Assembly: GCF_963506605.1 (NCBI RefSeq)
Contig: NC_083283.1
Location: 24,614,001 to 24,678,000 of the forward strand
From: Zootoca vivipara
Taxonomy: Eukaryota
Length of the DNA stretch: 64,000 nucleotides
Direction: 5' to 3'
The notes beneath the pieces were generated by a model. The model saw nothing but the letters and a program-made list of their open reading frames with translations, did no database searches and had not been told where the DNA came from. The position numbers and the translations under genes are program-made. Positions 1,773 through 64,000 of this stretch are shown here, piece after piece (the stretch's first letter is position 1; the number at the start of each line of letters is the position of its first letter).

Positions 1773-5756
<3,984 letters not shown>

Positions 5757-8880: not shown

Positions 8881-11800
8881 CACTGAGCAAATCTATAGCA
8901 TACTTACCAGGAAGTAAGTCTCAATAAGCTGCTCTCTTCATTAAGAGTGCGTCCCTGTGACTGATTTTTCAGGAACACGTGTGGAATTGGGAAGCATTTC
9001 TTTGCACATTTCCTAGAGGAAGGAAACTCCATTTATCACAGCGGGACTGACTTCTGAGCAAGGAAGTTGTTACAGTTAAATCCCTATTTCCTCCAAAAAG
9101 CTCAAGGTGGCGTACGATATTCTTCCACAACGCTGAGAAGGTAGATTAGCACAACTATTCCCAAATCACACATTGAGATTAATGGCCAAGTGCAGATTTG
9201 AATCCTGGTCTCCAAGGTTCCAATTCTTCGACCCCACTACAAGAGCCTTATGTTCACACCTTGGGAGCTACTTCCGAATTAAGCGTGGTTTCTTATTTTT
9301 ATAGAAGGCTGGATAGTAGCACTGTTCTCTGGGCGGCTTAATGAAGCATAAAATGACAAAACATAAATTGAGAACACACAGTGCCCTAAAACAGATGGCT
9401 GGCCGACGGCCGTCTATCATGTATGATCCACTTGCGATTCCTGCATCGCAGGGGGTTGGACTAAAGGACCCTTAGGGGTCCCTTCCAACTCTCCTATTCT
9501 TTGCTTCTGTAAAAACAACCCCAAATCCTGAGAACTTGCAGTGCAATCCTACTCAAAGGTTAAGTCCCTTTGAGTTTAACAGGGTTTACTCCCAATAAAG
9601 TGGGCATAGGATTTCAGCCTTAGAATACCCACTATTGAACTGAATGCGGGTTTACAGTCCCATCCCATTGTGTGTGTTTGTTTGCTCAAAAGTCGCTTTG
9701 AGTCGCCCTGGCAAAAAAGCGACTAATAAATGTACTGTAATATTATTAATAGTTCCAGCCGCTTATTCGGAAACAATGGAGAAGGGTTACATGCAGCAGG
9801 TTTTCCAGGTTCAATTCCCAACATCCCCAAGTAGATCTGCAGAAACCCCGGAGAAACCCTGCCAGTCTGGGCGCATCTCTAGATCGATCCATTGCTCTGA
9901 CTCGGAATAAGGCAGGTTGTTTTTTTTTTGTTTATAGGGAATGGCAAGGCGGAGACAAGTTAGACAAACAACTTGGCGCGGTAGGTCTCTTTCCACTTGA
10001 TGATGGCGCAAGAGTTTTTTTTTTTGTTTTTTTTGCGGAGTGCCTGAGATTTGCGCGCTGCAGACTTACCACAGCAGAGCGCAAAACAAAACCAGGAAAA
10101 GGCGAGGGCGGAGGAAGAGAGTATTTTGCGTGGGAATAGTCTTGCCCCCTGTGGTCTGTTTCAAGACAGGGTTGCTGGCTTATATATATACAGTATTTCC
10201 TTTTCAAGTTAATACGGAGCGGGAGCACACTGTCCCCTTTTTTCTTTTAAGGGGTGGTGGCGGTGCGTGCTTTGGCGACTGATTTCAGACAGATGCCATT
10301 TTCATAGACTCTCACAGTGTGCTCTTTATATTGGAGCTCTTCGGTGGCTCTCCTACTTGCTGATGCGATTTCCAGAAGAAAGGAGCCGCGAGTCGCGAGC
10401 CTTCCATGCGCATACCATCCTAGTCCGATTCCACTTTTTAGCCTTTTATCAGCTCAGCTCCATCCTGCCGCCCTCCCGCTCTCTGCAAAAAAAAAAAAAA
10501 AGGTTGGAGAAGCAGTTGCTGCAAAGTCGTGCGCGCAGTTCCGGGCGGGCAGCTGCCTGCCTGCAGGAAGCAGTGCCCGAGCAGGAGCTTTGTGGCGCCG
10601 CCGGACTGGGCGATCAGGTTTGGGAGGAGCGAGCCGCCGCGCTCGGAATTAACATGCTCAGCGTTACCAGTACTCCCCGCCCTCTTTTTCAGGGCAAATG
10701 ATTTCTCACCGTAAGCAACAATCGGGGACACACATACACACACACGGGGGAAATATCATCAGTCATTCCTGGCAATTCTTGGCCGTCTGCACGCAGCGGC
10801 TGCGGGCGAACTGTCTCTGCACCGGCTGCCATTCATAAAATTTTTTACCAACATCTCTTCTCAATGGAACATTTTGAGTCTGCGCACTGCACTGCAGTTC
10901 GCTCGCCTGCGAGGTTGCGTGTGGGAGGTTGCTTCGGATTCGAAGAGCTCCTTCTTAGCCTCTGGCCAGAGTAGCCGTGCCAAAAGGGGGTGGCTGCGGG
11001 GAAGAGAGACACAGAGCAATCTTATCTACTCAGAAGTGAGTCACACAGGTATCTCTGTTGGGCCTCTGGGAGTTAGGGAGAATCCCGATGTAGCAATATT
11101 TATGGCATTGACATTTCTTCCTTCAAGGCAAGGGTAGCCATTCCTATGTTATAGGGCCCCTAACTCCCATCAGCGTCCGCCGGCATGGCCAAGGTCAGGC
11201 ATGACGGAGTATGGTCTTGGTGGATCCATGTTTCTGCCCCCAAAGCACAAGATATGTGATTTATACCGTTCAGTCCTCCGAGACAGATGTGGTCTGTGAT
11301 CTAATGGTAGGTTTTTGGGGGTGGGGGTGGATGGTATATTTTGTAAATAATTATTATGTGAATTCGAGAGGACACATTTTTTAAATCCTGGATGTGACTT
11401 CTACCAGATCCTCTAACAAGTACAGGCTGGCTTATAAGCAGTAGTGTATGGTTGTAAATAAATGTTTATCACATCATAGTTTGCCTGCGATGTGGCGCTC
11501 TTTTTATTGTCAACGTTCAATGATTTGAGGATTATAGAATTACTTTCAGCAAGTCTACGCACATTCAGAAGCAGGTATCGCTGTTTACTCAGACACAAGT
11601 ATGCACAGGAGCGTAGTTTGATCCTATGCAGTATCAGTTGAAGCAATTCTCACTGTTTAAAGGAGCGTACTCCCAGGAGCGGATTCAATGCAACTTCATT
11701 TTGAGACCCACCCCCCGCAATTAAGTGGCATATACATTTTATGAAACAAACGAACAAATTTGTAGGGTAGAGCTGTTGCGCCTTTAATAAATGTGTGAAA

Positions 11801-12500: not shown

Positions 12501-15500
12501 TCTGGCCCCACAAAGGAAACTGGTCATCGTGCATCGAGAGTAGTGACAGCTCTGACCCGTTTCGTTCTTTAGTAGGTGCACCTGCGTCTTCGTATAGAAG
12601 TTCACACGCATGTACAGATGTAAACATTTTTCTTTTTTTGGGGGGAGGGGTTCGACTATAGGAATGGGATGCCTTACCTTTAGTAAAAATAAAAAGCCTG
12701 TCAGTTGTCTAGGTGTTGTTTAATCTTAAATACCTGCTACTCTGTGGCAATTACTAACATCGATTATAACCCATGATAACACACTCTGAATATTGTTGGA
12801 TTCCAAGTTATGCCAGCCCAACCGATGTAGCCAGTAGTGGGAGGAAATGGGAGTTGCAGTTCGGTAGCATCAGGAGGGCCATAGTTCCCCACCCCTGGGA
12901 TAGAAAAAGCCAGTAGAAGTGGGAGTAACAGCAATAGTTTAAGTCGAAACAATCATGGGCTAATTGGAGATCTTAAGTATGTGCAGCCTTACTGACAATT
13001 TGTATTGCCCTGTTTGTATGTTATTATGTAGAGGAGATTATTGATGAGGTTAAAAACCCTTAATGTATAGAGCCATCAAAGTCCAGTACTACGTGCTTTC
13101 CAAGCAGCTGAATTATCTGCATGTTGTTGTAGCTGTGCTTCTGATGCCCCCTGCCTTGACATGGGAATCTGGCCCAGCACTTTTTTCTCCTGCGCTAGTA
13201 GGTTGGGTAAAACAAATCTTTTAAGTCTCTTAAGTTGTGAGATACTGTGAAAAGTAGAATGCATCTTCTGTCTTTGTCTTTCTCTACTCAAATCTGCCGA
13301 AAGCATAAGTATGCAATGCAGTAGACTATATGGCTTGGTGAGAGATAGGGAGCAGGTAGAGTCCCTTCTATTCCCTGTGTGTGATATCATTTGTGTCTGT
13401 GAAAATGGTAATACAGGTGAGGTGGGCTGAATTCTGAATTATTGTTTGTGCTGTTGCACCTAACTACACAAACACTAGCATTAATTTGTCAAATTTAGTT
13501 ACCTGCGAACTGCTGGAAACCATTTTCAAATATTTTCTCATACATATCCGGTACACTTATGCATGCCTCTTTTTTTTGGAGTAAGGGGAGTCTATGCATG
13601 CCAAATGACCCATATGTTGGGTTAGGAATATTTATTTGGATTTCAGTACATTTCATCATGCAAGTATAACCAGATGTATGCTGCAATTGTTTATACTGTA
13701 TTATATTTTGCCTCTTGACCTTTACCCACTAAGACACTTGCTCACTCAACAAATGTGGAGCATGTGAAGTTGCTACTTGTGCTTAAAGTGAAATATTCAT
13801 TAGATGGACTGTAGTGTTCTTAAACTTTTGAAGACCAGATGGAAGATGCTTGTGAAAATGCTGACTGGAGCTAATGGGAGCTGAAGCCAAGCAACATCTG
13901 GGCTTGGGGAAGGCTGGGGTATATATACGGTATGCTTACATATAGCAGAGGCCTGCATTCCTTTTCACCCTCCAAGCTGAATACAGCTTGCCATGTATCT
14001 TATCAGGTACAGTACATGTATCTATCATTTGTATTATGCCTTCCCACCAAATGGTGCTCAAGGCACCAAAAATATGCCATTTTGGGGGCAAGTAGGAAAC
14101 AAGAAGGTTAGGGAGTCACTAGTGGGTTGTGTTTGACTTCATAGGCCACAAATGTATTAATTTAGAAAAAAATATTCTGTGCTTCCCTTCAATAAAATTC
14201 CTCAGTGTGGTGTACAATACAGTAATAGAAGAGCAAAACAAACAAAAAAACCAGCAGAAGTTGTAGACTTTTTTATTCCCTTCTTAAAATGACTTATCTT
14301 TAATAAATATTAAAACAATTTGCCTAATAGCCATTTGAACTGAAATGCTTTACTGAGCATAAAATAAGATGGGCACATTTCAGTCCTGTAAAATAGTGAT
14401 ATTTCCAGCCTGAGCTCCGTTTGCATGAACAATACAACCCTGAGCATATTTACTCAGATGTAAGTACTTTTTAGGATGGCAGCCTCAGGAATTGGTGAAA
14501 GGCTTCCTCTGGTAACATTTAATGGTTACTTTTTTACCTGGATCATCTGTAGCCAGATGTAGCTTTATAAAGGCATGCTATGGCCATTGAATGTGCATTT
14601 AAATACTGATAGGTGACTGAGTCATTGTGTGAAGCTTTAAATCTTCATGCTTTTCTTGTTCTTTTACTACCGTGTTTCATACTAATATCATGCAGCTTTC
14701 CTTTTGTTATGGCCAAGTACCAGGCTTTCTGCATATACACCTTCTGTCTTGCTTTCCCCTCTTTCCTGTAGCACATTGCAAACTTTTTCTGTATTCCTCA
14801 GTTCCTGTTGGATCATTGTCTATTCTGTCTTTCTGTTCATCCAATCAAACTCTTGGTTCATCATCTCTTCCTGCACCTCAGTTACCTGATGTCAGAATAT
14901 AGCTTTCTGTCTTTTTGATAACATTGAACATTCATTTTTTAACAGCAATGTTTGATTGGCCCAATCCCATAGTAGTTGTGAATATTCCATGACATCCCAG
15001 CAGCCCAGATAATGCCTTAGGCTGTGGTTTTGTGAAGTGAGTGAAAGAGAGTTTAGAGACTTATTGTATATAAAAATAATATAGCAATGCATATCAGTAT
15101 GGGATGCATGCTGTTAAAATACTCATTAAAAAGGTAGGCAACTATTAATATAACAAAAGCAAAATTAATTTTTACTCTTCAAAAGCCGCACTCAGTGGCT
15201 GAATGTCACCTCTGAATTTTATTTTTTTATGTCCTTGCCTGTCGCAAATGGTAAGCAGCATGGTGTGGGTGGCACTTGTCAGGAAAAGTGGGTGGATACA
15301 GCTGTCATATCATTGCTGGCCTTTTAGACAATTTATGGGTGCTGTGCCATGTATTTTAACCTTCATGAATTTTGTTCACTTTGTTTTTGTTTTTGATAGC
15401 AAAGTAGTAATGTAGATGTGGTTCGCTTTCCATGCGTGGTTTACATCAATGAAGTACGTGTCATCCCTCCAGGAGTAAGAGCTCATTCTAACTTACCTGA

Positions 15501-18500
15501 AAACAGAGCTTATGGGTAAGTGCAAATTGATTAATTGAGTTCTTTATTTAGAATATAGACACCCTGCTTTCTAGCACCTAGAGCCTCTCAAAGTAAATTA
15601 AACAAAGGCTTACATAATATTCTCAAAGTCAAACTCAAATTTGGTACAGGAACAAAAATTACATGGTGTACATATGGGGCCTGGAGTATCCAGGCTCTCA
15701 TTCTTGTTCTTCTGTGGTGTCATACCAGGCAGTCGCTCCCCCAATGTCATCTGAAGCAAGGAGGTGATTTGTATCTCACTGAGTCCTATGATAAAGGCAA
15801 GCTTTCCCTTGTTGGCAATTCCCATTTGCCAAGTAATAGCTCCATCTGAGGCAAGGGAGTTGGGCCGAGCAGCTGGAACTTGCTCAGCACATAGTGAAAC
15901 TAGTCTTCCTTTTCTGGAAGTTAGCAGCTACCTACCAGTGGTTATTTGAACAGCATTTTAAATTTGGAAAGTATTTTGTTATGTTCTCCTTCCCAACAAC
16001 TCTGTAGCTCCCATTATAGAGATGTGGAAGAAACTTTCCCTTGGCCACAGAATGACGGAAAGACTTGAACTTGGGTCTCCCAGATCCATCCAGCACTATC
16101 TCCTGGAATCAGCCTTTTCGAAAGCTTAGGACAGTATGAGAACTCAGAGAGGGATCTAGATTGCGTCAAGACAGTGTCCATAGCCAGAATGCCAGGGTCA
16201 TTTGACCCCGATGAACTGGTGAGTGGATTTGTGCAATCCTAATACAAGGCTAGCACAAAGCTGGAAAGTTCGTTTAGTTTGAAGTGAATTGGCAAACCAT
16301 AGCTTGGAGACAGTTTTGGTTAGCTCCAACCCTTATTTGCCCTGTTGGGGTATTATGTCGAAGTAGGATTAGAACAAATCAGGAAAAGGAAGTAAGAAGT
16401 GTGCTCACCCACGTCTTCCCATGGTGGCAGTTTTCTGTCCCTCTTTCCCAAAAGTTACTTCCAAGGTTTGGGGAATCCCTTTAGAATCCCTTTAGTATTG
16501 AGCGTGGTGAAAGGGGATGTGGTTTTGCAGCGGGGGGTTGATGGAAACCAGGATCTTTATTGACTCCAAGCATTTATGATCATTTACCAAATCTGTGCAG
16601 TGTCAAATAGCACATGTGTGATGGAGGTGCAGTCACAGATCTGCACGCCTCTTACATATGTGATGAGCTCGTCTGAAATTACAAATGTGATGGTTAAGAT
16701 AGTGTGTGTGTGTGGGGGGGAAGTATAACAATGTATGATTTACCTTTGGATTCAACAATGCTAGGTTTATTAGATAATGGCTTGATGAGATGTCATGATA
16801 ACTATTGGATTGAGAATGAGCTGTGTGCTTCCTCATTACCCTTCTCCACCTCCACTTGAGTTGTGGCTTATTAATTTTATAGTCAAATACTATTAAAAAG
16901 CTCCCCACTTCTTTACTTCTTGCAGATTGTGGCTATATGATAATTGGTATTTTAAGGCTTGATTATCTTGTTTATTGTAGTCCTGTAAAATAATTTTTTA
17001 CACTTTGGCTTTCTTCTCAGTGAAACATCTCCTCACACATTTCAGTTAGACCTGTTTTTCAACAATGTCAGCAAACCAAGTGCCCCTGTATTTGACAGGC
17101 TGGGAAGGTAAGCATTTATATAATTCTTTCATAATCTTGGTGCTATTGTAAGACTTAACCAGGGCTAAGGCAAGCCGTGTAAGCCTGGCTACTAGTTTCC
17201 CTGTGTCTTGTTTATGAAGAAAACAGTTGAAGTAAATGAAAATGTAGGCTTTGAGTTTCTCTATTCTGCTACTAAATATAAAAATAGATAATTGTCATTC
17301 TCATTAGATATTGCTTGAAAAAAGTACCATTGTGAATCTGGTTGTAAAATATGTTGGTGCAGTTTCTTTGAACCTTAACAAATATGTCTATTTCAACAGC
17401 CTGGAGTATGATGAGAACTCTTCAATAATTTTCAGACCTAATGCCAAGGTAACAATCACTTATAAATTCTGAGATTGACCCTTCTAGTGACAACTGTACA
17501 GCGAGAGCCTGGTAACCTCTACACTGGGCTGTGTTGTGATGGGATGTTCTTGGGGTACTTTTGAAGACTTCTCAGAAAGCTTCATTAGTGCAAAACATAG
17601 TTGCTAGGTTTTTCACTAGGGCCAACTATAGAGAGCATCTCTCAACAGTTCTCAAACATGCATACCAGTGCCTAGTCTGTTTCCAAGAGCAGTTTAGAGT
17701 GCTGGTTGTTACCTATCTGAAGGACTGCCATCTACCTCATGAACCTGCCTCAGTCCTTTGAGTCTCCTCATCAGAGTCCCACAATCATTTGAAATAAGGA
17801 GGTGGTGAGCAGAGCAAGTGCCTTCTCAGTCTTGGAGGATCACATTTGGAATGCCCTTCCCCAGAGGTGCTCACCTGGTTCCCACTCTCTATTAAAAACA
17901 AAGTGCCATCTAATAAATGCTCTAGGGAGAGGTATGATTAGCTTTAGTCCATTGTGCGATGCAGTGCAGGCCATCTGAAGCCCATTAGAAACATTTGGTC
18001 TGAGTGGGCCAAGTGCACATGGTAGGGGGACCAGCATTTATGTAGCCAGATGCTGTCTCACGTGTGTGTGTGTTAGAGAACCTGTGCATGTAGGCCAGCC
18101 ATGGGGAACCTCTGGCTCACAAGCAGAAGGTGACCTTTAAGTCCTCTCTATCTGACCCATGGGACTCTCATCAAGTCACATTCCTCTGTCCAGCCCATGC
18201 CCCTCACATCACAGCTCACTGTCTTTCTTTTTTTTAAAAAAGCTGAGGCTTTCAAAACTATTACAGGAGTCTGTGCCTCATGTGTTTGCAAAGTGCATTT
18301 ATATCTACTGTAACATAATAAAAAAATTCCTTCCAGCAGCACCTTAGAGACCACTAAGTTTGTCAATGACAAACTTAGTTGGTCTCTAAGGTGCTGCTGG
18401 AAGGAATTTTTTTATTTTGTTTTGACTATGTCAGACCAACACGGCTACCTACCTGTAACTAGAACTACTGTAAGTGAAATATAACAATGACATAGCTGGA

Positions 18501-21500
18501 ACTATATTACATTGCAAATGTATACTGGTCCTGTTCTTGTAGGGTAGGTGCAGCAAGTTAAAGGTTTATCTTTGTTTCTTTTATGTTCTCTCTCATTTAA
18601 AAAACAGGTCAACACTGACGGATTAGTTCTGAGAGGCTGGTACAACTGCTTGACACTTGCAATATATGGCACTGTTGACAGAGTAATAAGCCATGATAGG
18701 GACTCTCCCCCTCCGCCGCCACCGCCGCCACCCCCTCCTCAGCAACAAGCAGCTTTGAAAAGAACTCCGAAACCTGGTAAGCATTCCAAAATGAATCCAA
18801 TTAAAATTCTTTTTTTCTTTTAAAAGAAATGCAAATAGAAGGAAGTGATTCCCCCCCCACCCGCATAGAAGTTAAATAATCTACGTCTAAAACGTTTGTG
18901 TCTCATTACTTCTTTCAGCTGAAGTTTTTGTCTGTGATCTGTAAGTTAATGCATGCACCACTACAGTTTTTTACTGAGTGGTTCATTTTCAGCAACTTCC
19001 CACAGGCTTCCCACGAATTTATTTATCTTTATTTATAAGCTCATTTATATGCTTTTTTTTTACAGCTGATGGAGAGAAAGAGGATCAGTTTAATGGCAGT
19101 CCTCCACGACCACAGCCTAGAGGCCCAAGAACTCCACCTGGCCCCCCTCCTCCTGATGATGATGAAGATGAGCCAATGCCCGTATCAGGTATTTTGGAAC
19201 TTAACTTTCTTTCCATTTCTTTCTCACTTGTGTCCAGATGCATGCATAATTTAAGTGAGGAGAAAGTGTTGCTGTTTTTCTAGTAAGTATATTTTCCAGC
19301 TGCAACTGAATTCACCACTGGGAAGTAGCAGTTGTGACAGGTGCATTTATTAGGCTGCTCCATACGGGAGAATTGGCAAACATCTGTGCAGTATTGGTCC
19401 ATGGAGGCTAACCTTGCCTTAAAACTACAAAACCAAAGCAGCAGTTTATTAGTGTCCTAGCTTGAAGATTTAAATTGTATGGAAAATACACAGAATTCTC
19501 TTAGCAGAACATTAAATTATACCATGGGTATTATTTGTTTAGCTTTTGTTGTTGTCTGCTTTCTCTTTGAAAAAGACAGTTGTTTAAATTAATTTTGCTG
19601 TGGATTACATTATTTCCAGTGGTTGGGGAGAAAGATGACGTCGTTGATCACAGAGAGGATTACTTTGAGCCCATATCTCCTGATCGAACATCCGTTCACC
19701 AGGAGGGTCCATATTCTGATGAAGCAGAAGTGGAAGAAGACCAGCCCGAAGAAGTGGATGATGAAGAGGGGGTGGATGTTGAGGAGGAGGAGGAAGATGA
19801 AGAGGATGACGATGGTCAAACAGTAGAGAGCATTCCAGAAGATGAAGAAGAGGATGAAGAGGAGGAGGAGGAGGAGGATGAAGAAGAGGATGTTGAAGAA
19901 GAGGAGGAGGGTGAAGGTAGGCAAATACAGAAACTGAGGACTGAGTTGCACGTGCATACATGTTCTTTCATCACTTCATCACAGAACAGTTGATTTTCAG
20001 CTGAATGTGTGAACTGTCCCTATTGAAAAATATTGAGTAGTGTTCAAGCTTTACTGATAATAGGTCTATTGAAGTTAATGCACCTAATGTCATGTTCATT
20101 AATTTCATTTGGTTTACCTTGAGTAAAATCACCGATTGTTTGATTTGACCGGGGTATGCAAACGTTCTGAGTTACTTAACCTGTGTCAGTCAGTTTACGC
20201 CAGTTGTCACTAGAAGCTAATAATGATAAGTGTTCTGTGTGTGTGATCTGGTCCTGAGACAGTGGAATATATGTAGTATTTTTTTGGGGGGGGGGAAGCC
20301 AAGCACTTCAGAGGACACTAGGGAAGGTTTTGTGGCGTATAGGTTTTCTACCTTTTCTATCAAAATATTATTTGTGCTATAACTGCAGTTGCGAGTCATT
20401 GTCTTTTCATGTTTGTGGTCCTTGTTGATGGGCATGGTCTGACATACAGTAACACGAGAGATTGTGGAACTCCCTTCATTAGGAGATATGACTGCCTCCC
20501 TTACTCATGAGTTTTAGACATCAATTTAAACACTTCTCCATATGAGGGAGGTGCAAAGCGTGGTTACACAAAAGGAGAGTTTTTCAGTGGTGGGCCCCCT
20601 TTTCGAAATACTCTCCCTAGGGAAACTTTCCTGGTATCATCAGCTTTTGGGTGATAGATGCTTCTGTTTGCTAGACTTTTGGTGCTTCAGTTAGTCTCTG
20701 TTGTGCTGCTTATCTTTTAGTGGGGTACAGCAGGGCTAATCCTCAGATGAGCATTTTAAGTGTTTTGTATTGTACATTGTTTTTCAGTTTGACTTTTAAT
20801 TCATTTAAATTATTCGTATTTTATCTTGTTGCTTTAATACTTTTTTGTATAAAGTGACTAACAAATACTACAAATAATCTTTTCATACAATCCTTTGGGT
20901 GAGGACTGTTAGCTGGATATGGTGGTTTGAATGTTACTGGGGAATGGATTGAGTGGTTTCCTTATATTTTAGTCTGACTGTATTGTGGTATTCACCACTT
21001 CAAGATCCTACGAGATAGAGGGTGGTCTTAAAATAAATAAAAACCAAGCTTAAGAATTTTCCTTGTGGAGATAATCTAATTATATGGTACAATTATATAT
21101 TTCTATTGTTAGTTGATACCTTTTGGTCTTGTGTGTGAGTGCTTAGCTGATGGGTTGGCAAGGCATCCTGCAAATGTTTTACTGCTGGGGCTCCCATGTT
21201 TATGAGCAAAAGGGGAGAAGATGGTTTATTTTTCAAAGCTGTAGTTAATGGATGTGTGTAATTTGTTGCTTATTTTGGTTCAATGGATTCAACAAGATAA
21301 TTTTAAAACTTTTCTTTTCAGGGGATGATGGTTATGAGCAGATTTCAAGTGATGAAGATGGAATTGCTGACTTGGAACGTGAGACGTTTAAGTACCCAAG
21401 CTTTGACATTGAGTACACTGCTGAGGATCTAGCCAGAGTGCCACCTGTGACCTATGATCCTTTTGATAGGGAACTTGGGCCTCTTCTGTACTTTAGCTGT

Positions 21501-43215: not shown

Positions 43216-43640
43216 CTAAGAGTAAAACTAAAAAATAGTAAAACCACAAGACAGGAATTTAATGACTCAAAAAATAATTGAAATAAACAACTAAGCTAAA
43301 AACAGATCAAAATATTAACTTCTTCATGTCTGGATAAACTTGCCTGAACAAAAATGTTTTAGCAGACACTGGAAAAAGTGCAGTGAAGGTGCTTGCCTGA
43401 TGTCAATAGGCATGGAGTTCCAAGTGTGGGTGCTGCCATGCAAAAAATATCTATTTTTTACAAGTGTGGTGCACCTGTAATAGTGCCAGTGCTGCAGATT
43501 GAACTGACTGAATAGAAATATACGGGGGTAAGGCAATTCCTGAAGTAAACTGTTCCTAAGTGTTAAGGGCTTTATATACTAATGCTAACAGCTTGAAGTT
43601 GGTTCGGTAACAAACCTGTAAGCAGTGCAGATTTCTGGGC
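43168..43640 (-). mobile_element. Old L2 3' fragment with (TAT)n microsatellite
   Basis: WNSMPIDIRQAPSL is an L2 ORF2 C-terminal motif; (TAT)n 43168-43214. Confidence 0.6.
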
Positions 43641-43788
43641 GGTGTTGTCTGCCGACAGAATCTCATTGCTGTCAACAGGTGGACTGCAGCATTCGGTACT
43701 AATTGTCAGCTGCCAGATCCAGCAAAAGGAAGCACCACATAAAGCAGACTGCAGTGATCCAATCTTAAATAACAGTCGCCTCTGGCTT

Positions 43789-43995
43789 TCACTTCTTGCT
43801 TTCCAGTTGGGGCAGAGGTCGAACGTGTGTTGCTTTCCTGCTTCCATCCCTAGTCAACCGACAGTCTTCCTGGAGAGTCTTCACTAACTCCAGTAATTCT
43901 AGCTTTTCAAGCTGTGCCTGCTCCAGTTCTTGGTGATGCTGCCTCTCTCTTGCCAGCAGAGTACGTATGTCAGACATCATCCTGGACACCTGGCT
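43789..43995 (-). CDS. RNF41/151-like terminal coding exon
   Basis: SQVSRMMSDIRTLLARERQHHQELEQAQLEKLELLELVK...LESKK-TGA. Confidence 0.87.
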   Translation of the reverse strand, partial: SQVSRMMSDIRTLLARERQHHQELEQAQLEKLELLELVKTLQEDCRLTRDGSRKATHVRPLPQLESKK

Positions 43996-46900
43996 CTGAA
44001 AAGTGTAAGAGAGTTTTTCAAGTGTTGCACTGGGACTGCCTGTTAACAGTTAAAGGTAAAGGGACCCCTGACTGTTAGGTCCAGTCTCGGACGCAGCGCT
44101 CATCTCACTTTACTGGCCAAGGGAGCCGGCGTTTGTTTGCAGACAGCTTCCGGGTCATGTGGCCAGCATGACTAAGCCGCTTCTGGCGAACCAGAGCAGC
44201 ACACAGAAACGCCGTTTACCTTCCCGCCTTTACCTTATCTACTTGCACTTGATGTGCTTTTGAGCTGCTAGGTTGGCAGGAGCAGGGACTGAGCAACGGA
44301 AACTCACCCCATTGCGGGGATTCAAACCATGACCTTCTGATCGGCAAGCTCTAGGCTCTGTGGTTTAGACCACAGCGCCACCCGTGTCCCCTATTAACAG
44401 TTAGATGCTCACAATTTCCTATCACATTTGTTTCTTCCCCTTCCTCCAAGGACCTCAGAGTAGCATACAGATAACAGAGCCTAGATTTCATGGATCTGCC
44501 CCTTTTCAGGTATCCAGACTGCTGCAAAACAGATCTGTTTCTGCCCACTTTCCAAGGCAAGAGAGAGGCTGCATCGTCCTGGAATGACTTGGGCCCAGGC
44601 CCAAATGCTTCTGTACCCAGAATTTAAGGTAAAACTAAATGTGCATGGGCATTCTGAGGGCTATTGCAATGATTGTGCTCTCCCTGTTATCCCAGTACAG
44701 TCATACCTCGGTTTAAGTACGTTTCGGTTTGAGTACTTTCAGTTTAAGTACTCCGCGGACTTGTCTGGAATGGATTAATCCACCTTCCATTACTTTCAAT
44801 GGGAAAGTTCGCTTCAGGTTAAGTACAGACTTCTGGAACCAATTGTGTACTTAAACCGAGGTACCACTGTAAATTTGGGAAAAGAGAACTCTCAGCAGGT
44901 GGGGGATGTGTGGTAGGGAAGACTCTTCTAAGCCAACTTGGAAGTAGTCTGATTTTTATTAATGGTCCATCTCCAAATTAATATATTAATGGGACTGGAG
45001 GAAGTTTGCCAGTCACCAATAGCAATGCTTCCTTGCTTATGTGAATTGTAGTTAAAATACCTGCTGCTGAAACCATTGGTTCTAAAATAAATGCTGTAGG
45101 TGAGACTTCCCCAATTTGATGCTTCCCAGCTGTTGTTGGACTTCAACTCCCATCAGCCCCAGCTGGCCTGGTCAATGAGCAAGGATGATGGGAATTGTAG
45201 TCCAAATGTGTCTACCCCCTGGAAACTGAAAAAGAGTACAGCAGGGAATAAAGCTGTCAGGAAAACCAATTCACCAGAGGTAACATTTTAAGGGAGGGAG
45301 ATGACCTCATAGCTAATGGCAATACAATTTGTTTACCTTTAGCTCTTCAATCTGATTTTGCAAAAGACTCTCTTTTTGCACCATATGCTTCCTTTGAGAA
45401 TCTAGTCGAGATTCCATCTCATGTTTTGCCTCTTCCATCCGGCAGATCATCTCTGACCTTAAAAAAAAAAGGAAAAGAGAGCACTTTCCGTTACTCAGCC
45501 TATCTGTCTTTAATCTGAATATACAGGAAACTCAAAAATTATGCACATTCAGTTTTATGTGCTTGGCAAGAATTTTTTTAAAAGAGGGTGAATATCTGGA
45601 AAAAAAGACTTTGGCAATCCCTCCCTCCCGCCCTTGTCCTGTCCTGTTCATTCTGCTTTAATTTTGAGAAGGATCGCTTGGACTGAAACAAACAATATTC
45701 ACTTGTTCACACGTACGCTAAGCCAATACTCTGGTTTGTATCCTCTTGGGAGGAGGGCAGCAGGTGCAGCGGAAGAATGTGCACCAGCAAATTGATCATT
45801 CACAAAAAGCGATGGTTTGTTTTAGACCAGGACTTACCATTATATGTGAACAGGGCCACTAATGACCAAAACAGGAAGTAGTGTTTAATCCATCAGTTTT
45901 GCACTAATAATTCTGTAAGTCACAAACAATATCTTTTTTTTATCTTCCATCTGTTTTATGCAATATCTGCATCTTCCTTCGGCCCAAGATAAACATCTCA
46001 TTTTAACAGCCCCAGCTTCACTCACATAGGCATTTCTCATAAGCTAGTACTGCCAAAGAAGCTTTTCATTTATGACTAAGGTAGGTTTGAGGTTACCACC
46101 AAGCAGGGCACAAGCTTATGTTACACAAAAAAGATGTCAACAAATCTTTTATTTCAATCAAATCAGGATGATAGAATACCAGTGTAATTTGAGTGGGAAA
46201 ATAGGAGGAAGGGGTGGTGATGGCAATAGAAGCAATTTGCCAAGCTACCAAACTGGATTCCTGAGCACCCAGGAAATTGCAGCAGTATCAAAGAACGGTC
46301 CCCTTGTGCATGTTATAGAGCAGGGGTAGGCAACCTAAGGCCCGTGGGATGGATGCAGCCCAATCGCCTTCTCAATCCGGCCCGCAGACGATCTGGGAAT
46401 CGGCGTGTTTTTACATGAGTACCGTAGAATGTGTCCTTTTATTTAAAATGCATCTCTGGGTTATTTGTGGGGCCTGCCTGCTGTTTTTACATGAGTAGAA
46501 TGTGTCCTTTTATTTAAAATGCATCTCTGGGTTATTTGTGGGGCGTAGGAATTCATTCATATATTTTTTTTCAAAATATAGTCCAGCCCACCACATGGTC
46601 TGAGGGACGGTGGACTGACCCACGGCTGAAAAGCATTGCTCACCCCTGTTTTAGAGAGATGGACAAAATATTTAGGTGTCAGTTCATGCTTTATGATCAC
46701 CCAAGGTAAGGGGAAGAATACAGGTAGCTTTACCTGAGCAGTTCTAGTTCCGTTCTCAGCTCTGCCACACAGTTATGTTGTGCATCATCAGCACTGAGCA
46801 TGGCATACCCACAACCTTTGGGGCACTCGCGGCTCCTGTATTCGCACACTGCCAAGTGGCTGTCTAGGTTACGTCTTTCAACCCGAGCTGGGCAACCTGA

Positions 46901-49892
46901 TTGGAAAGCAGAAGATTGGAGGAAGTGCACCAGAGAGAGACAGAGAATTACTTCATTTCCCCCACCATCTTCTGACTTGGAGACAACGATAGATTGCACC
47001 CCAGAGAGGTCACTTCAGAGCTGCTAATGCAGCAAAAACAATGTGGAAGGCAGCAGTGACAAGCTACTGGTTTCTGATTCTCTGTGATTGTCCAGCAGTT
47101 TGACTTACCCCCCTAGAGGCACACTCCATTGTCTCTCAAGACAGAAGGATGCTAACAACAGCACCACCACTCTTGAGGAATCTAGGTTAGTGTTTCCTAA
47201 TGTGCGTAGGTGCAAGGATTCTCCAAAGTGGCACTAGCACATCAGCTGCCTTTCAGTTCCCCAAACACCAACACTGAATCCATACTTTGCTTTGGCTAGT
47301 GTTGGCAACAGGTAGAAATGGAACAGGAAGGGGTGTTCACACAGGAAAAGAAACAGAGAAGGCCCACTCTGCAACAGCCACTAACTCTGGGAATTACCTT
47401 CAGTCGAGATTCCAGAACCGTGGGACTTGAGTTCAGTAGAAAACGGAGATCTACCATCTGTTTGCAAGATAACCATCTCTGCGTTCTACCTACCGCTATT
47501 TGAACAGGGGACCCGGCTGCATTCACACTCGCGTTCATGTCGGTCAATGGATTCCAGTGAACACACCATTTCACAGCCACACTCTCTGTTCCTGCAGTGA
47601 ATCTGGAGTCGATTGAGATCATTCTTCATGTATCTGGGTACAGAAGTTAATTATTTTTATTCTTGCAATATGTACTGCAAAATGGCTTCACGTGCTCCCC
47701 AGTTCTCTGAGTGGTAAGGCATTCCAGAGTCAGTGCTAACTGATTCAGTTTTCTTTGGATGAGGCCACATGGCAGATTAACCATGACTGCGTGGTATTTG
47801 GTTTCTTTGCAAGTATACAGGCAGAGCACAGGCGAAAGTAAACAGCAGATCCCCAGAAAGGCAACTTGCACTACAAGGCATTTCTAGCCTTGATGTTAAG
47901 AGCTTCCGCACTCTACCTTCTGCCTGTCCATCCCCTTAAACTGCTGCACTAACTTCCATACATTACACCAGCCACCCTCCTCAGCTGGGCTGTGGTGTCA
48001 CCCTCCTTACTCCTAACATTCTGGAGAAATATCTGTATCAAGAAGCTATCTTCTAACAATTAGATCCCATAGAAAGACACTGTGAGCCATTAACCATAAC
48101 ATCCTTTCCTCAAAACTTAAGACTATGATCAGCCATTGATTTAAGGCAGGGGTGGGGGATCACAGGTCTGATCACCGAATGTGACTCTTCAGACCTACCT
48201 GGCTGTCATGATTTCTTCCCTGCTATACCCCTCACTGGCCCTGCTCACCACTGACACGTTGCCCCTGGAAGGTAACACCCCCTTGTCACAATTAAAATGC
48301 ACGCTTGCAGAAAGCTGGCAACCCTAATGAAGCAGAAGCACCATGACCAACTTGTGTTATTTGGCAACACAGTAAGTCAACACTTGTTTGTGATGTTTAT
48401 GTTTAAGATGTATTCATTCTTTATTACATGAAATACTTCAAAAACATGTATTGTGGGTATTGCCACTTATGCTGTCCTATCCTTTTGTTTTTCAAAAGTT
48501 GTGCTTTTAAAACCTTACCTGTTAGTAGGTTAATGAAGCTTTAAGCAGTTTGTTCCAACCTTGAGAAAAGGAATTTGGTGAAGTCAAGAATTTTCCTAGC
48601 GACTGCACANNNNNNNNNNNNNNNNNNNNNNNNNNNNNNNNNNNNNNNNNNNNNNNNNNNNNNNNNNNNNNNNNNNNNNNNNNNNNNNNNNNNNNNNNNN
48701 NNNNNNNNNNNNNNNNNNNNNNNNNNNNNNNNNNNNNNNNNGCAGCAAGGTTAAAAGGGGTTCAATCTGAGGTGTGAATTCAGATCAAGCCGAAACTTTG
48801 TGATGCAAGCAATCTGGACTTTGCTACTTACTCTGCACCTATGTAATGGGATTATGTTTCCACGTACGAAAAGAGGACAATACAGTGGTAACCTCGGGTT
48901 GAGAACTTTGCCCCAGGGTGAGAACAGAAATCGCACGCCAGTGGCGCAGCGGCAGGCATTTGCGAAAGCGCACCTCAGGTTAAGAACAGTTTCAGGTTAA
49001 GAACGGGCCTCCAGAACGAATTAAGTTCGTAACCCGAGGTACCACTGTATGTATAGAGATATTTTTGATAACTGGAACTTGGCACTGGATCCTGTGGGAC
49101 AGAACATTCTTAACTATCCTGTGTTTCTATAAAAGCAGTTCCCTCTTTATTCAAATTCGGAAATGGCTACACAGTAAACTCCCAAAGAGGTAACGTGTCT
49201 GCAGCACATCCTTCTGCCTCACTCTTTTCCTATACATCTCTTTCCTTGCAGGAACATTTTCTCTTCAGAGTGAAATAGACCAAATCTAGGCTTACTAAGA
49301 CTAGTTAATTTCATTAATTTGCATGACATATGGGGTAGTAACTTTAGTATGGAAAACCAATCAAAAAGGATGCTCCATCCCTCAGCCTTACATTTGCATA
49401 TTTGCTCAAACTACTAAAACTGATAAAAGTGGAGGTTCTCTTTTGTTCTGGGTTCCTTCCTTGTTCTCCTGCATGAGGGGAAGGACCCTGTTGCAACAAC
49501 AACAACAAAAAAGGCTTTGTTTCTCAAAATTCTCTGGTTGGCCTCTGTTATATCTCCGACCGATGGAGAACCCAAATAGGGCTCTTGTGTACCCCATAAG
49601 GGAATAAGGGCAGATTTTTGCTTATATCATAGTGTAGGATTAGATTTTGTGACAGCTGCAAGTTGGACTCAGAAATAATTACGCACCTGTAAAGCGGTCG
49701 AAGGACAGACAGATCAAGCGGCTGACGATCTTCTGGGCAGTTGCTGTGATGAACAAGCCACCCATGTATGCAGGAAGTGCAGAAAGCATGTTCGCAAGGA
49801 GCCTGCAAGGGATCTTCCAACACATCTCGACAGATGCAGCACAGGAGCCCTTCATTCACGTAACCGACAAAGCGTTCAATATCATATCCCAT
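43789..49892 (-). CDS. RING finger E3 ubiquitin ligase, RNF41(NRDP1)/RNF151-like: RING-HC + two TRAF/SIAH-type zinc fingers + coiled coil, 278 aa
   Basis: Join complement(49687-49892, 47494-47633, 46734-46896, 45337-45457, 43789-43995); GT-AG, phases 2/1/2/0, no internal stops. N-terminus MGYDIERFVGYVNEGLLCCICRDVLEDPLQAPCEHAFCTSCIHGWLVHHSNCPEDR resembles RNF41 MGYDVTRFQGDVDEDLICPIC as recalled. Confidence 0.9.
44050..44392 (-). mobile_element. Sauria SINE
   Basis: Reverse-complement homology to 35031-35388. Confidence 0.85.
44698..44869. mobile_element. TcMar/Tigger-like MITE
   Basis: TA|cagtcatacctcggtttaagtac ... gtacttaaaccgaggtaccactg|TA. Confidence 0.85.
45337..45457 (-). CDS. RNF41/151-like coding exon 4 (coiled coil)
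   Basis: SEMICRMEEAKHEMESRLDSQRKHMVQKESLLQNQIEELK; tttaag|G, AAG|GTAAAC. Confidence 0.88.
46321..46648. mobile_element. hAT-like MITE with 8-bp TSD
   Basis: TIR caggggt..gcaa / ttgc..acccctg; TSD ttatagag / ttttagag; internal ~70-bp tandem duplication. Confidence 0.8.
46734..46896 (-). CDS. RNF41/151-like coding exon 3 (zinc finger)
   Basis: CPARVERRNLDSHLAVCEYRSRECPKGCGYAMLSADDAQHNCVAELRTELELL. Confidence 0.9.
47494..47633 (-). CDS. RNF41/151-like coding exon 2 (zinc finger; not in ORF track in this frame)
   Basis: YMKNDLNRLQIHCRNRECGCEMVCSLESIDRHERECECSRVPCSNS. Confidence 0.9.
48610..48741. other. Assembly gap (132 N)
   Basis: N run inside an intron of the RNF41/151-like gene. Confidence 0.99.
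48883..49047. mobile_element. TcMar/Tigger-like MITE
   Basis: TA|cagtggtaacctcgggtt ... aacccgaggtaccactg|TA. Confidence 0.82.
49687..49892 (-). CDS. RNF41/151-like first coding exon (RING)
   Basis: Acceptor ccatagcag| at 49911, ATG 49892, donor AG|GTGCGT. Confidence 0.92.
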
Positions 49893-51137
49893 TTTCTCAA
49901 TGACCTCTAGCCTGCTATGGAAATGAAAGCACAGAATTAGTAACAGATTGAGAACTGCGGCCACATTACCTTTGAAAGTCAAGTGAGCACATTATCACCC
50001 TTGCACCTTAAGATCTGAAGAGATATGATGCAGAGGGAGTGAAGTGGCTTGTGAGTTTTATGCCATTCCCAAGTAGCCCAGAGGCTGCTTATGCAGAGTA
50101 ATCACTAGGGACTGTCAGAATTTGGATGCAATTCCAATTTGCAACCTTTCCCCAAGCATGCAAAGCCATAGCATAGACAAGAGCAAACTTACACATTTTT
50201 GTTCATTTAGTTGCATCTCAACCTGCAAGAGAGCCCTTTTTTATAGAGCAAAACACATGCAGGCATTGTTTTCAAGCTTCTTTGCAACGTGTCACAGCCC
50301 CTCAAAAAATAATACATTGCATGTTCAGTGTTCAGTTTCTTCTCAGAGAAACCCTAATTAGATTTAGGAGGATTAATGCTTCTTTCCCCATTAAGTATGT
50401 AAAGCAGCCAGAGCACCTGATCAAAGCAACTAAGAGCCACCTGCTTCTTTCTCAGGTGTCACTCTAGAAAGATTCTTTGGATTAAGTGGCATATGGAATG
50501 GGTTCTAAACTCTGAGCTTACAAAGTGTTTATAATGTGAACTGTGCATGTGTTTTGAGATGCTAAGAAACTGTTGAATGGAATGTACTCACTCTGTACCG
50601 TAATAATACTGTTTCGTATTTTAATGGTGGGGTTATTTTTATTTTTTAATGTGGAATATTCCTAAAGTTTCTGCTGGAAAATATAATTCTTTTTGTAAAG
50701 CATAATGTTACAGAACATAAAGTAAGCAAATTCTTACATTTTCATATAAGTAGCCTGCTGTGTTCCCTGTAAAGATTTCTGTGTTATAAAAATGGTTCTG
50801 CACAAACTGTGGTTTTTAATTGTCTCACTCTGTTTGCTTCATCGTGCCTCTCTCCAAGAACACTTTTATTTGTTAAGCTTCCTAAGTAAATGATCCCTGC
50901 ACTCAACCCACTGGTTGCAATGAGCTGCCACCCCTACTTTTCACACAGCTACAGAAAACATTCTCTAAATTTTGACAGCAGGAAACAACAGAGGAAAGGG
51001 GAAGACAGCAGATGAGAAGCAGCATGCGACTGTTTTGGTCACAGGGGCTTAGGGCCAGCCTTTCCAACCCCATTTTGCATATCTACGCTCAAAAGTTCAA
51101 GCAAGCACAGTTGGCCAAAACATTTGGAGGGCAAATG

Positions 51138-61823: not shown

Positions 61824-64000
61824 GTAAGTTGCCTTTTACATTGCTCCTGGATGGCTGCTACAGCGCCTCCTGTCTTCTCTGGCCATCCCCTTTTGAGCTA
61901 CATGCCTTAGCCTTTGGGAAAAGTTAAAACCTTGTGATCATTGTTATTATTTACTTCTTTAATTTTTAAACAGTGACTGACTTTTCTGTTCAACTTCCAG
62001 CCGCATTTCAAAAGATCTTATTGTCGGACCCTTGGCAAGTGAGGGTTAAGAAAGAATCCAAGTGAAATAGGAGCTCCAACTTTTACCCCTCCCCTTTTAA
62101 TAGGCATAGCATTCAAACACTGACCAAGCAAAAGGCTGTTCTACATTTAAGGTAGTACTACGGTCAACTTGCCTCTGCATACGGAAACTGACGCCTGTTT
62201 TGGATAATATCTATCTACATGAAGTCGAGCAGGAGAACAAAGGAGCCTCTCTCAGTACAGTGTGCCCAGTCAAGGATTATGTTAATCTCTCAGGGTGGAA
62301 TACATTTTGACTGAATTTAGACCTTTTAAATGATTTTACTTGGTATGCTACCATGCCTTTTTAAACAATGCAGATGGATTGTTTTAAACAATCACATTCT
62401 CGGAGGCCAGTATGCAAATTAATGCTCTAATTTAAACTGCAAAAAAGAGGGCATGGAGCACATTTACAGGGGTTGTGCGCAGACAGATCGGAACACTGCA
62501 GTCACACAAAAGTCTTCATATTTTCCAGCAGCCTTTTAGTGTATAATCAAATCGGAGCCTCTCTAGATTTGAGCCAGAGGTAGAGCAGGCAGGCTGTCTT
62601 CAAGCTTTCTTGCAGGGCCTTTGCTTATGCTGCCCTCCCCCTCTACAAAACACGGCTGCTCAAAAGCTTCTCAGACCAGATTTGTCCTGTGCCTGGATGC
62701 AGACATTTTAAAAACCAGGGGGAATGGAGCAGCTCTCTTCCTTACTCCTGTCACAAGCCATTTAAATTCATGTCACTTACTGTGCAAAACAAATATGTTA
62801 ATCTGAGTTTCCGGGAAAACTGGCATGTTTGTGCACACTGGCCAGTCCTTGATTTGTACTGCCTCTGGATGGTAACAGTCGTCTAAATCCCACCATGGCA
62901 GATGCTGTAAAAATAACATGTGGTGGTGGGCCTTTTGGTGAAATAATTCTGTATTGCCTAGGGTAAATAAGGTATAATCAAAATGGACTTTTACAGCACA
63001 ATCCTTTATCTTTCTACTCAGAAGTAAGCCCCTGTTGAGTTCACTCAGGTGTACTCCCATCTAATTACTGTATGTATAGATATGTAATAGCATGTTAGAA
63101 GGGTGTGTGTATATAATTTCTACAATACTGATGTAGATTGAAATGGTCAGCATAAGCCAGAAGTATGGGGCCACTTTTTGGGTGGTCATATACTCTTCAT
63201 TTAACCCCTTAGCCAATACAGCAGGTTTCTTTTGTAGCTTAATAATTTTGTAGTTGTGGAAATGGGTGGATTTGTAATTACAGTTGTATTTTATTTTTGT
63301 ATTGTAAGCCATTATGGGTGCTGTGTGAGCAGCACAAATGTGGCACACAAATGTTTTGAAAATATTAATAGTGTGCACCTTAAAGACTATTGAAATCTGA
63401 AAGATTTGTTTGTTATTTTATTCAATAACAAACGTTTCCCAAAAAATCAGTTCACTAACAGTTGGAGAAACAATCTCCTGATCCTGACGATATTATGTTG
63501 GAGTAAGCTTCATTAATCTGAATGAAACTGACTTCCCTGTAGTTGTTTGGGATCTAAGTGAAAAGCTTTTCTAAATCCTTTTTGTACATAATATATTCCT
63601 TTTTCTCAATAGAGAACTTGTGGACCAAATTGGCCATCCTCCCAACCAACTGAGATTCTGCCTCTTCATCTTCCCACCTCTTCCCATTAATATTGTTTCC
63701 GTGTCAGTCTCTGCTGTCTGGAAACCATTAATTTCTTCCTCCCATTTGATTAAGAGAAACCTGGTACGTAGGACCATTGAGTCATGGAATGGGGTTGGCC
63801 AACAGGGATAGAGAAGAATAGTGATGCATAGCTCCAAATTTCCAGTTCCCAGTCAAAAGTCACCATTGAGAAGCAGAAACACAATCTGCTCTACCTCATC
63901 TCTATAAAATGCTCCAGTGGCTGGATGAGGTGGTGGGATGAATGAGAGTAATAAACTGAGTCTGAAATCATAGCATGATGGAGGCTCTGTGTGTGAGTCC

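What the first reader, a model, noticed from the sequence alone, without database searches (positions are those of the whole stretch)
43789..49911. Intact RING / TRAF-zinc-finger / coiled-coil E3 ligase gene between VIRMA and RAD54B, apparently missing from the human locus
Seen: five GT-AG exons splice into an uninterrupted 278-aa ORF. It has a RING-HC whose last ligand is Asp (CPED, as in RNF41 and TRAF6 CPVD), two TRAF/SIAH-type zinc fingers and about 100 aa of predicted coiled coil. Known: RNF41 has a C-terminal USP8-binding domain, TRAFs a MATH domain and PDZRN/LNX proteins PDZ domains; none is present here. To my recollection human VIRMA and RAD54B have no coding gene between them. Inference: a poorly characterised paralogue, neither true RNF41 nor RNF151, kept in sauropsids and lost in at least some mammals.
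Basis: partly seen in the sequence, partly recalled or inferred. Interest (0 to 1): 0.7.

Follow-up and report, generated by a model that had tools for sequence, protein, structure and literature searches.

The report
Old ubiquitin ligase missing in placentals
This lizard gene is real and spliced, and encodes a predicted ubiquitin ligase of an old family, separate from RNF41 and RNF151, that is kept from snails to marsupials but was likely lost in placental mammals; this lizard's copy lacks the family's conserved tail.

Summary
The gene is real: five coding exons give 278 aa, all four introns appear in RNA reads, and it lies between VIRMA and RAD54B. It is already in databases (fish 'rnf41l'; elsewhere mislabelled RNF151, RNF41/NRDP1-like or PDZRN3) but I found no paper on it. 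Trees separate it from RNF41 and RNF151; orthologues occur in snails, lamprey, sharks, bony fish, amphibians, sauropsids and marsupials, so it is far older than 'sauropsid'. No placental or monotreme copy turned up, although a control search found placental RNF151 readily. Marsupial copies evolve 3-6 times faster and lack the tail, which fits stepwise decay. Corrections: three zinc fingers, not two; and the copy is not fully intact, because lacertids stop before the conserved KRKxREVTVI end (a class I PDZ-binding-type motif), whose remnant lies just past the stop. Likely mechanism (inferred): TRAF6/LNX-type RING ligase, oligomerised by a coiled coil, docked on PDZ scaffolds by its tail. Chicken 'RNF151', a muscle-QTL candidate interpreted through mouse testis RNF151, is this gene. 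The human locus could not be inspected. Modest interest: hidden paralogy plus mammalian gene loss, a known kind.

The parts
49687..49892 (-). Coding exon 1 (ATG at 49892): RING finger C3HC3D, residues 1-69, with W45, P53 and R56 at the linchpin position
47494..47633 (-). Coding exon 2: linker helix, zinc finger 1 and first ligand of zinc finger 2
46734..46896 (-). Coding exon 3: rest of zinc finger 2, zinc finger 3, start of long helix
45337..45457 (-). Coding exon 4: conserved long helix (predicted coiled coil)
43789..43995 (-). Coding exon 5: end of helix, disordered tail, TGA at 43791-43789
43765..43788 (-). Untranslated remnant of the family's C-terminal motif (reads KPEATVI then stop) directly behind the lacertid stop codon
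43226..43788 (-). 3' untranslated region, at least to 43226 (one RNA-type contig); A(A/T)TAAA hexamer near 43263
49893..49914 (-). 5' part of the first coding exon; candidate acceptors at 49912 and 49915, so at least one upstream exon is likely
   Evidence: upstream joint not among those listed
51237..51311 (-). Upstream exon used by a RefSeq 311-aa isoform model; has look-alikes elsewhere in the window, so probably repeat-derived; not confirmed here by reads
53001..54500 (.). CpG-rich stretch (observed/expected 0.67-1.05) between this gene and RAD54B, which face away from each other; possible shared promoter (untested)

Best explanation
The gene is the lizard member of an old, separate family (fish rnf41l) of predicted RING ubiquitin ligases that was likely lost in placental mammals, and whose conserved tail, likely a PDZ-binding motif, is cut off in lacertid lizards. 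Shown: exon structure, splicing, domain order (RING, three zinc fingers, 100-residue helix), separation from RNF41 and RNF151, range from gastropods to marsupials, the early stop. Inferred mechanism: the RING-zinc-finger arm binds an E2~ubiquitin as in TRAF6 and LNX1/2, using R56 as linchpin; the helix forms a coiled coil that oligomerises the protein; and, having no substrate-binding domain of its own, the ancestral protein reaches substrates by docking its KRKxREVTVI end into a PDZ scaffold and through the conserved helix surface. The lacertid and marsupial forms would keep catalysis but lose that docking. Inferred history: relaxed constraint in therian mammals (tail loss, faster change, zinc-finger loss or truncation in some marsupials), ending in loss in placentals.
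For: Family of 24 rows at 100/99 support, apart from RNF151 (100/100) and RNF41. AU tests reject mammalian RNF151 joined with amniote members (p 3.7e-7) and vertebrate members joined with lizard RNF41 (p 1.8e-9). True RNF41 with its USP8-binding domain lies on another contig; marsupials have both this gene and RNF151. All eight RING ligands, W45, P53 and R56 are invariant in 116 of 116 full-length non-marsupial members; zinc-finger ligands 114-116 of 116. Model pLDDT 91; best matches TRAF6 N-terminal domain (Foldseek E 1.9e-12; VIA Z 15.7, 2.3 A over 155 residues), then TRAF5, LNX1/2, RAG1. Linchpin and dimer concept: passages of PMC6776665. Tail: 92 of 122 full-length proteins end S/T-x-V/I/L, 90 after removing two chance matches, against about 2% by composition; gastropods end KVTTI and KVTNV; motif definition from passages of PMC7765395. 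10 of 10 lacertid and 6 of 6 marsupial full-length proteins lack it. No placental or monotreme name among the 120 listed of 298 or 120 of 209 hits (marsupial query); of 466 fetched proteins 17 were nearest to a marsupial member, 13 being named marsupials and 4 distant ties at 30-42%; control: a bat RNF151 query returned 59 named placental clusters of 82. Marsupial excess of changes 44-67 against 9-20, p<=2.6e-4 in 12 of 12 tests.
Against: No biochemical data exist here for ligase activity, oligomer state, PDZ binding or substrate. Placental absence is from protein databases only: 178 and 89 hits were not listed, and unannotated or pseudogenic copies would be missed; monotremes were not found either, so the timing of loss is open. 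Repeated loss of the tail (lacertids, marsupials, possibly Tiliqua and Salvator) shows it is dispensable in some lineages; 14 other non-lacertid, non-marsupial entries also end differently, many as alternative isoform models. The basic KRKPR part could be a nuclear localisation signal instead. Heptad signal is clear only in residues 205-255 (a/d hydrophobic 0.73; best 0.43 in 158-205). Python also shows some acceleration (2 of 4 tests p<0.005), and no genome-wide rate control for marsupials was run. Deep relationships are unresolved: RNF151 as sister family is not rejected (p 0.125). Counts are database entries, bird- and fish-heavy, not independent events.
Confidence: 0.62

Rival explanations
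1. It is the true orthologue of mammalian RNF151, moved to another locus in mammals (as the RefSeq name implies).
For: Same RING + three zinc finger + helix layout; 33% identity over 162 aa; this lizard shows no other RNF151, neither genome-wide nor between RPS2 and TBL3, where I recall human RNF151 to lie; sisterhood of the two families not rejected.
Against: Marsupials carry both genes; a loach has a separate RNF151 that groups with mammalian RNF151 at 100/100; AU p 3.7e-7; RNF151 has Cys as eighth RING ligand and no similarity in the helix or tail.
Confidence: 0.03
2. It is a vertebrate duplicate of RNF41 that lost the USP8-binding domain (as 'RNF41-like' implies).
For: Shared N-terminus and C-P-x-D-R RING end; 45-58% identity in RING pieces; the two families are neighbours in the tree with weak support.
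Against: AU p 1.8e-9; gastropod members lie inside the family; RNF41 lacks zinc finger 2 and has different intron positions.
Confidence: 0.03
3. It works mainly as a non-catalytic or weakly catalytic partner (adaptor, or heterodimer subunit of RNF41, TRAF or PDZRN/LNX ligases), not as a stand-alone ligase.
For: No substrate-binding domain; the helix is as conserved as the RING (83-96% to turtle from ray to ibis); RING heterodimers and pseudo-ligases exist in this fold (TRAF5-TRAF6 entry 7l3l; TRAF2 passage in PMC13061254); PDZRN/LNX proteins have PDZ domains that could take the tail.
Against: E2-facing residues I/V20, W45, P53 and R56 are invariant in 116 of 116, as expected for an active RING.
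Confidence: 0.17
4. Placentals (or some of them) still have the gene, unannotated, misnamed or too diverged to be found.
For: Only the best 120 or 150 hits are listed; no mammalian genome could be searched; marsupial copies are already fast-evolving.
Against: A marsupial query ranks crocodilians and turtles directly after marsupials; placentals are richly present in the database; the one pig 'NRDP1-like' label found shares a probe set with true NRDP1 (PMC7084236 passage).
Confidence: 0.12
5. The lacertid tail is still made by stop-codon readthrough or RNA editing of the TGA.
For: The remnant is in frame and still ends T-V-I in this genome.
Against: Reads over the TGA show no other letter (depth about 3 and 16); a second species keeps the TGA but has a further stop and a T-to-A change inside the remnant.
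Confidence: 0.03

Closest known systems
Fish rnf41l ('ring finger protein 41, like'); RefSeq 'RING finger protein 151(-like)' / 'NRDP1-like' of non-placental vertebrates
   Same: This is that gene: 78-99% identity over exon 1 in the listed hits, one clade.
   Different: The lacertid protein lacks the family's C-terminal motif. No functional study found.
RNF41/NRDP1
   Same: N-terminal RING with Asp ligand followed by Arg, zinc fingers, helix.
   Different: RNF41 has the USP8-interacting domain, lacks zinc finger 2, has other introns and another locus.
RNF151 (mammals, some fish)
   Same: RING + three zinc fingers + helix, no C-terminal globular domain; 33% identity over the N-terminal 162 aa.
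   Different: Separate clade; Cys as last ligand; unrelated helix and tail; testis-specific in mouse and human with fertile knockouts (PMC9277888 passages), whereas chicken's copy of this gene is measured in liver (PMC12841298).
TRAF6 (and TRAF5/2) N-terminal module; LNX1/2 Zn-RING-Zn
   Same: Best structural matches: residues 1-163 superpose on TRAF6 54-210.
   Different: No MATH or PDZ domain; 26-31% identity; chain type and partners unknown.
Genes lost on the placental stem (Kuraku and Kuratani 2011, PMC3296468)
   Same: Present in chicken and anamniotes, absent from placental databases, hidden behind a paralogue's name.
   Different: Not named in that paper's main text; its supplementary list of 147 genes could not be read, so it may already be listed there.

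Membership tests
rnf41l family | Groups with proteins named rnf41l in a supported clade | tested here: met
   (18 jawed-vertebrate rows 99/95; 24-row family 100/99)
rnf41l family | RING(C3HC3D)-3 zinc fingers-conserved helix | tested here: met
rnf41l family | C-terminal KRKxREVTVI motif | tested here: not met
   stop codon precedes it; remnant in 3' UTR; shared by all 10 full-length lacertid entries, so a derived loss within the clade
rnf41l family | Conserved position near CDH17/RAD54B/VIRMA | tested here: inconclusive
   flanks shown for this genome; chicken gene lies 125 kb from CDH17 (PMC12841298 Table 4); other genomes not available
RNF41/NRDP1 | USP8-interacting C-terminal domain | tested here: not met
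RNF41/NRDP1 | Nests with RNF41 orthologues | tested here: not met
RNF151 | Nests with mammalian RNF151 | tested here: not met
RNF151 | Lies between RPS2 and TBL3 (recalled human position) | tested here: not met
   that interval is on contig C14 and holds no RING match; this gene is on C8
RNF151 | Testis-specific expression | not testable with these tools
   tissues of the runs are coded; chicken copy is quantified in liver
TRAF proteins | C-terminal MATH/TRAF domain | tested here: not met
TRAF proteins | RING + tandem zinc-finger fold | tested here: met
PDZRN/LNX | PDZ domains | tested here: not met
Active RING E3 ligases | Zinc ligands, E2-facing hydrophobic residues and linchpin Arg | tested here: met
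   linchpin defined
Active RING E3 ligases | Ubiquitin transfer in vitro; dimerisation | not testable with these tools

The most novel reading that the evidence does not exclude
An unrecognised third family of RNF41/RNF151-type ligases, at least as old as bilaterians, that reaches its substrates through a C-terminal PDZ ligand conserved from snails to birds; it decayed stepwise in therian mammals (tail loss and acceleration in marsupials, loss in placentals) and lost the same tail independently in lacertid lizards, and its misnaming as RNF151 has misdirected the reading of a chicken muscle-weight QTL candidate.
Probability: 0.5. Interest if true: 0.5.

Novelty: new member of a known kind. Interest (0 to 1): 0.37.

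Why it matters
A ligase kept at 75-80% identity between sharks and turtles but apparently absent from mice and humans marks a ubiquitin pathway that mammal-centred work cannot see. It corrects an annotation error with a practical cost: the chicken 'RNF151' proposed as secondary candidate for a pectoralis-weight QTL is discussed through mouse and human testis RNF151 (PMC12841298), yet its primers match this family and not the four mammalian RNF151 proteins checked. Natural tail-less versions (lacertids, marsupials) give ready comparisons for testing the motif. The kind of event (hidden paralogy, placental loss) is well known, so surprise is moderate.

Tried and rejected
First structure prediction from 26 close orthologues was poor in the RING (pLDDT 72) and was replaced by a 124-sequence alignment. 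Complex prediction for a homodimer was not available: no verdict. ESM Atlas returned the family's own chordate clusters and did not identify the unnamed basal members; their phyla remain unknown, so 'older than bilaterians' is not claimed. No run on record as RNA was listed as a holder; raw-read runs of the same species label were laid instead. No 5' joint or transcript start was obtained, so the shared promoter with RAD54B is untested. Readthrough or editing of the stop was tested and disfavoured. Paper searches: rnf41l, RNF41-like, NRDP1-like, RNF151(-like) (no paper contains 'rnf41l'); gene loss terms; RNF41 paralogue phylogeny: none describes this gene's history. Kuraku and Kuratani supplements unreadable; 12 of 19 supplementary files of PMC5901865 searched without a hit; PMC6886504 main text has no mention. 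Pig and coral 'NRDP1-like' labels look like RNF41 itself and were set aside. PMC11043543 uses a fish 'RNF151' only as a qPCR check. Earlier scan findings: none. TRAF and LNX sequences were not put in the tree; they are excluded by domain content and structure only.
Full report
Observation. On the minus strand, exons 49892-49687, 47633-47494, 46896-46734, 45457-45337 and 43995-43789 are bounded by GT-AG and give a 278-aa open frame; 15 other combinations of nearby sites break earlier. Three raw RNA runs of the same species label show all four joints (intron 1: 4 reads; intron 2: 16; intron 3: 31; intron 4: 24; 73 of 75 oriented as minus-strand RNA), and contigs of a fourth run show the same. 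The protein is identical to P0173, a RefSeq lacertid entry named 'RING finger protein 151 isoform X2'. The masked stretch 48610-48741 lies inside intron 1 and does not affect the model.

Neighbours. VIR_N exons of VIRMA map to window 15400-19804 on the plus strand and its recalled C-terminus ends at 41575. On the other side a frame beginning MRRSAAPSQL at about 55660 (recalled RAD54B start), an FSBP-type Myb/SANT exon at 61405-61824 (E 2e-20) and an SNF2 exon 17 kb beyond the window (E 1.9e-18) fit RAD54B with nested FSBP. The gene is tail-to-tail with VIRMA and head-to-head with RAD54B, with a CpG-rich stretch at 53001-54500 between.

Anatomy. Pfam finds RING, zf-TRAF and Sina zinc-finger matches and no USP8_interact, PDZ or MATH domain. 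Alignment of 124 relatives shows three C2HC fingers after the RING, not two. In 116 full-length non-marsupial orthologues the eight RING ligands (the last is D55), W45, P53 and R56 are invariant and finger ligands are kept in 114-116. The model (pLDDT 91) has a compact RING-finger arm, one helix from 158 to 258 and a disordered end. Residues 1-163 match the TRAF6 N-terminal domain (Z 15.7, 2.3 A, 155 residues), followed by RAG1, other TRAF6/TRAF5 entries and LNX1/2. Heptad periodicity is clear in 205-255 and weak in 158-205.

Identity. Exon 1 finds proteins at 78-99% identity in sharks, rays, bichir, gar, teleosts, amphibians, squamates, turtles, crocodilians, birds and marsupials, named variously RNF151(-like), NRDP1-like, 'RNF41 ligase', PDZRN3, TRAF6-like or 'Ring finger protein 41, like' / rnf41l (120 listed of 298; 120 of 209). 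A profile search of 1.84 billion representatives (150 listed of 8835) adds lamprey, the gastropods Littorina and Candidula and several unnamed relatives. True RNF41, with its USP8-binding domain, is on contig C2. In a 53-row tree of the N-terminal 189 columns the family (19 vertebrate rows, Littorina, 4 unnamed) has 100/99 support; RNF151 of five mammals and a loach forms its own 100/100 clade. AU tests reject mammalian RNF151 with amniote members (p 3.7e-7) and vertebrate members with lizard RNF41 (p 1.8e-9); RNF151 as sister family is not rejected (p 0.125), and RNF41 rows did not form one clade, so deep order is open. TRAF and LNX rows were left out. This lizard shows no true RNF151: a bat query finds only PDZRN-type exons, this gene and weaker RINGs, and the RPS2-TBL3 interval holds no RING.

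Mammals. With a marsupial query the next hits after marsupials are crocodilian and turtle; no placental or monotreme name is among the listed hits (178 and 89 hits unlisted). Of 466 fetched proteins compared with 17 references, 17 were nearest a marsupial member: 13 named marsupial proteins and 4 distant ties. As a control, a bat RNF151 query returned 82 clusters, 59 named placental, 1 wombat, 22 unnamed. Marsupial copies carry 44-67 private changes against 9-20 in turtle or Elgaria (12 of 12 tests p<=2.6e-4); the window protein is not significantly faster (p 0.1-0.4), python is in 2 of 4 tests. Wallaby entries lack two ligands of finger 3 and sugar-glider models end at 154-172 aa. No mammalian genome could be searched, so loss in placentals is inferred, about 85% likely, and the human interval was not inspected.

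The tail. 92 of 122 full-length entries end in S/T-x-V/I/L, 90 after removing two chance matches, mostly REVTVI (65), against about 2% expected. [quoted passage not shown] Gastropods end KVTTI and KVTNV, lamprey DIAVV. Of the 30 without it, 10 are all full-length lacertid entries, 6 all full-length marsupial entries, and 14 other entries, many alternative isoform models. The window reads ESKK-stop-KPEATVI-stop. Reads across the TGA show no change, and a second species keeps the TGA but has another stop inside the remnant, so it is decaying 3' UTR.

Mechanism. Most likely (0.62) an active TRAF6/LNX-type RING ligase: R56 sits at the linchpin position described in passages of PMC6776665, the helix likely oligomerises the protein, and the tail would dock it on a PDZ scaffold in place of the substrate domain that RNF41, TRAFs and PDZRN/LNX carry in cis. 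Rivals: adaptor or heterodimer subunit (0.17), surviving placental copy (0.12), RNF151 orthologue, vertebrate RNF41 duplicate and readthrough (0.03 each). The basic residues of the tail could also act as a nuclear signal.

Literature. No paper in the library contains 'rnf41l', and searches on gene loss and RNF41 paralogy found none on this gene. PMC12841298 (passages and Tables 1, 4, 6 seen) names chicken chromosome 2 'RNF151', 125 kb from CDH17 and measured in liver, as a secondary QTL candidate and interprets it through mouse and human testis RNF151; its primers translate to two motifs present in the chicken entry P0470 of this family and absent from four mammalian RNF151 proteins. PMC8953847 (passages) lists chicken RNF151 as slightly down in influenza. 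PMC9277888 (passages) gives mammalian RNF151 as testis-specific with fertile knockouts. PMC3296468 (abstract, section 13 and a term search) establishes the kind of event; its supplements could not be seen and may list this gene. PMC13061254, PMC6886504, PMC11043543, PMC7084236, PMC5438590: passages only; PMC5901865: 12 of 19 supplements searched.

Verdict. A real, annotated but unstudied and widely misnamed gene; an old separate family, probably lost in placentals, with independent loss of a conserved tail in lacertids and marsupials. New member of a known kind; interest 0.37.

Noticed in passing
G000:C14:30,890,001-30,980,000 (L017-L025): RPS2 and TBL3 lie head-to-head with no RING gene between them, and no RNF151 is found genome-wide: this lizard appears to lack true RNF151, a reciprocal loss to placentals.
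   Followed up: partly
window 53001-54500: CpG-rich stretch between this gene and RAD54B; a few minus-strand reads in one run; possible bidirectional promoter.
   Followed up: partly
window 51237-51311: Upstream exon of a RefSeq 311-aa isoform has look-alikes at 9086, 44430 and 6732, suggesting a repeat-derived exon.
   Followed up: partly
window 61405-61824 and L030:4757-5305: FSBP-type exons nested inside RAD54B on the same strand.
   Followed up: partly
window 52179-52943 (-): 254-aa frame that looks like a LINE reverse-transcriptase end (recalled, not tested); very high repeat read depth.
   Followed up: no
window about 4400-5700 (-): Frames here look like the reverse of the first ESRP1 exons (recalled, not tested), which would extend the 8q22-type gene order.
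   Followed up: no
protein P0001 (Polypterus): 741-aa model made of six tandem copies of this gene's RING + first zinc finger; real tandem array or assembly artefact.
   Followed up: no
protein P0070 (penguin): 779-aa model fusing this gene to Gag-type Pfam domains, probably an annotation across an inserted element; observed only.
   Followed up: no
proteins P0003, P0019, P0058: Tiliqua, Salvator and Rhinatrema entries also end without the motif; further independent losses or model errors.
   Followed up: no
proteins P0020-P0026, P0471-P0483: Many bird genome entries label this gene 'RNF41 ligase', so bird RNF41 names in databases are unreliable.
   Followed up: partly
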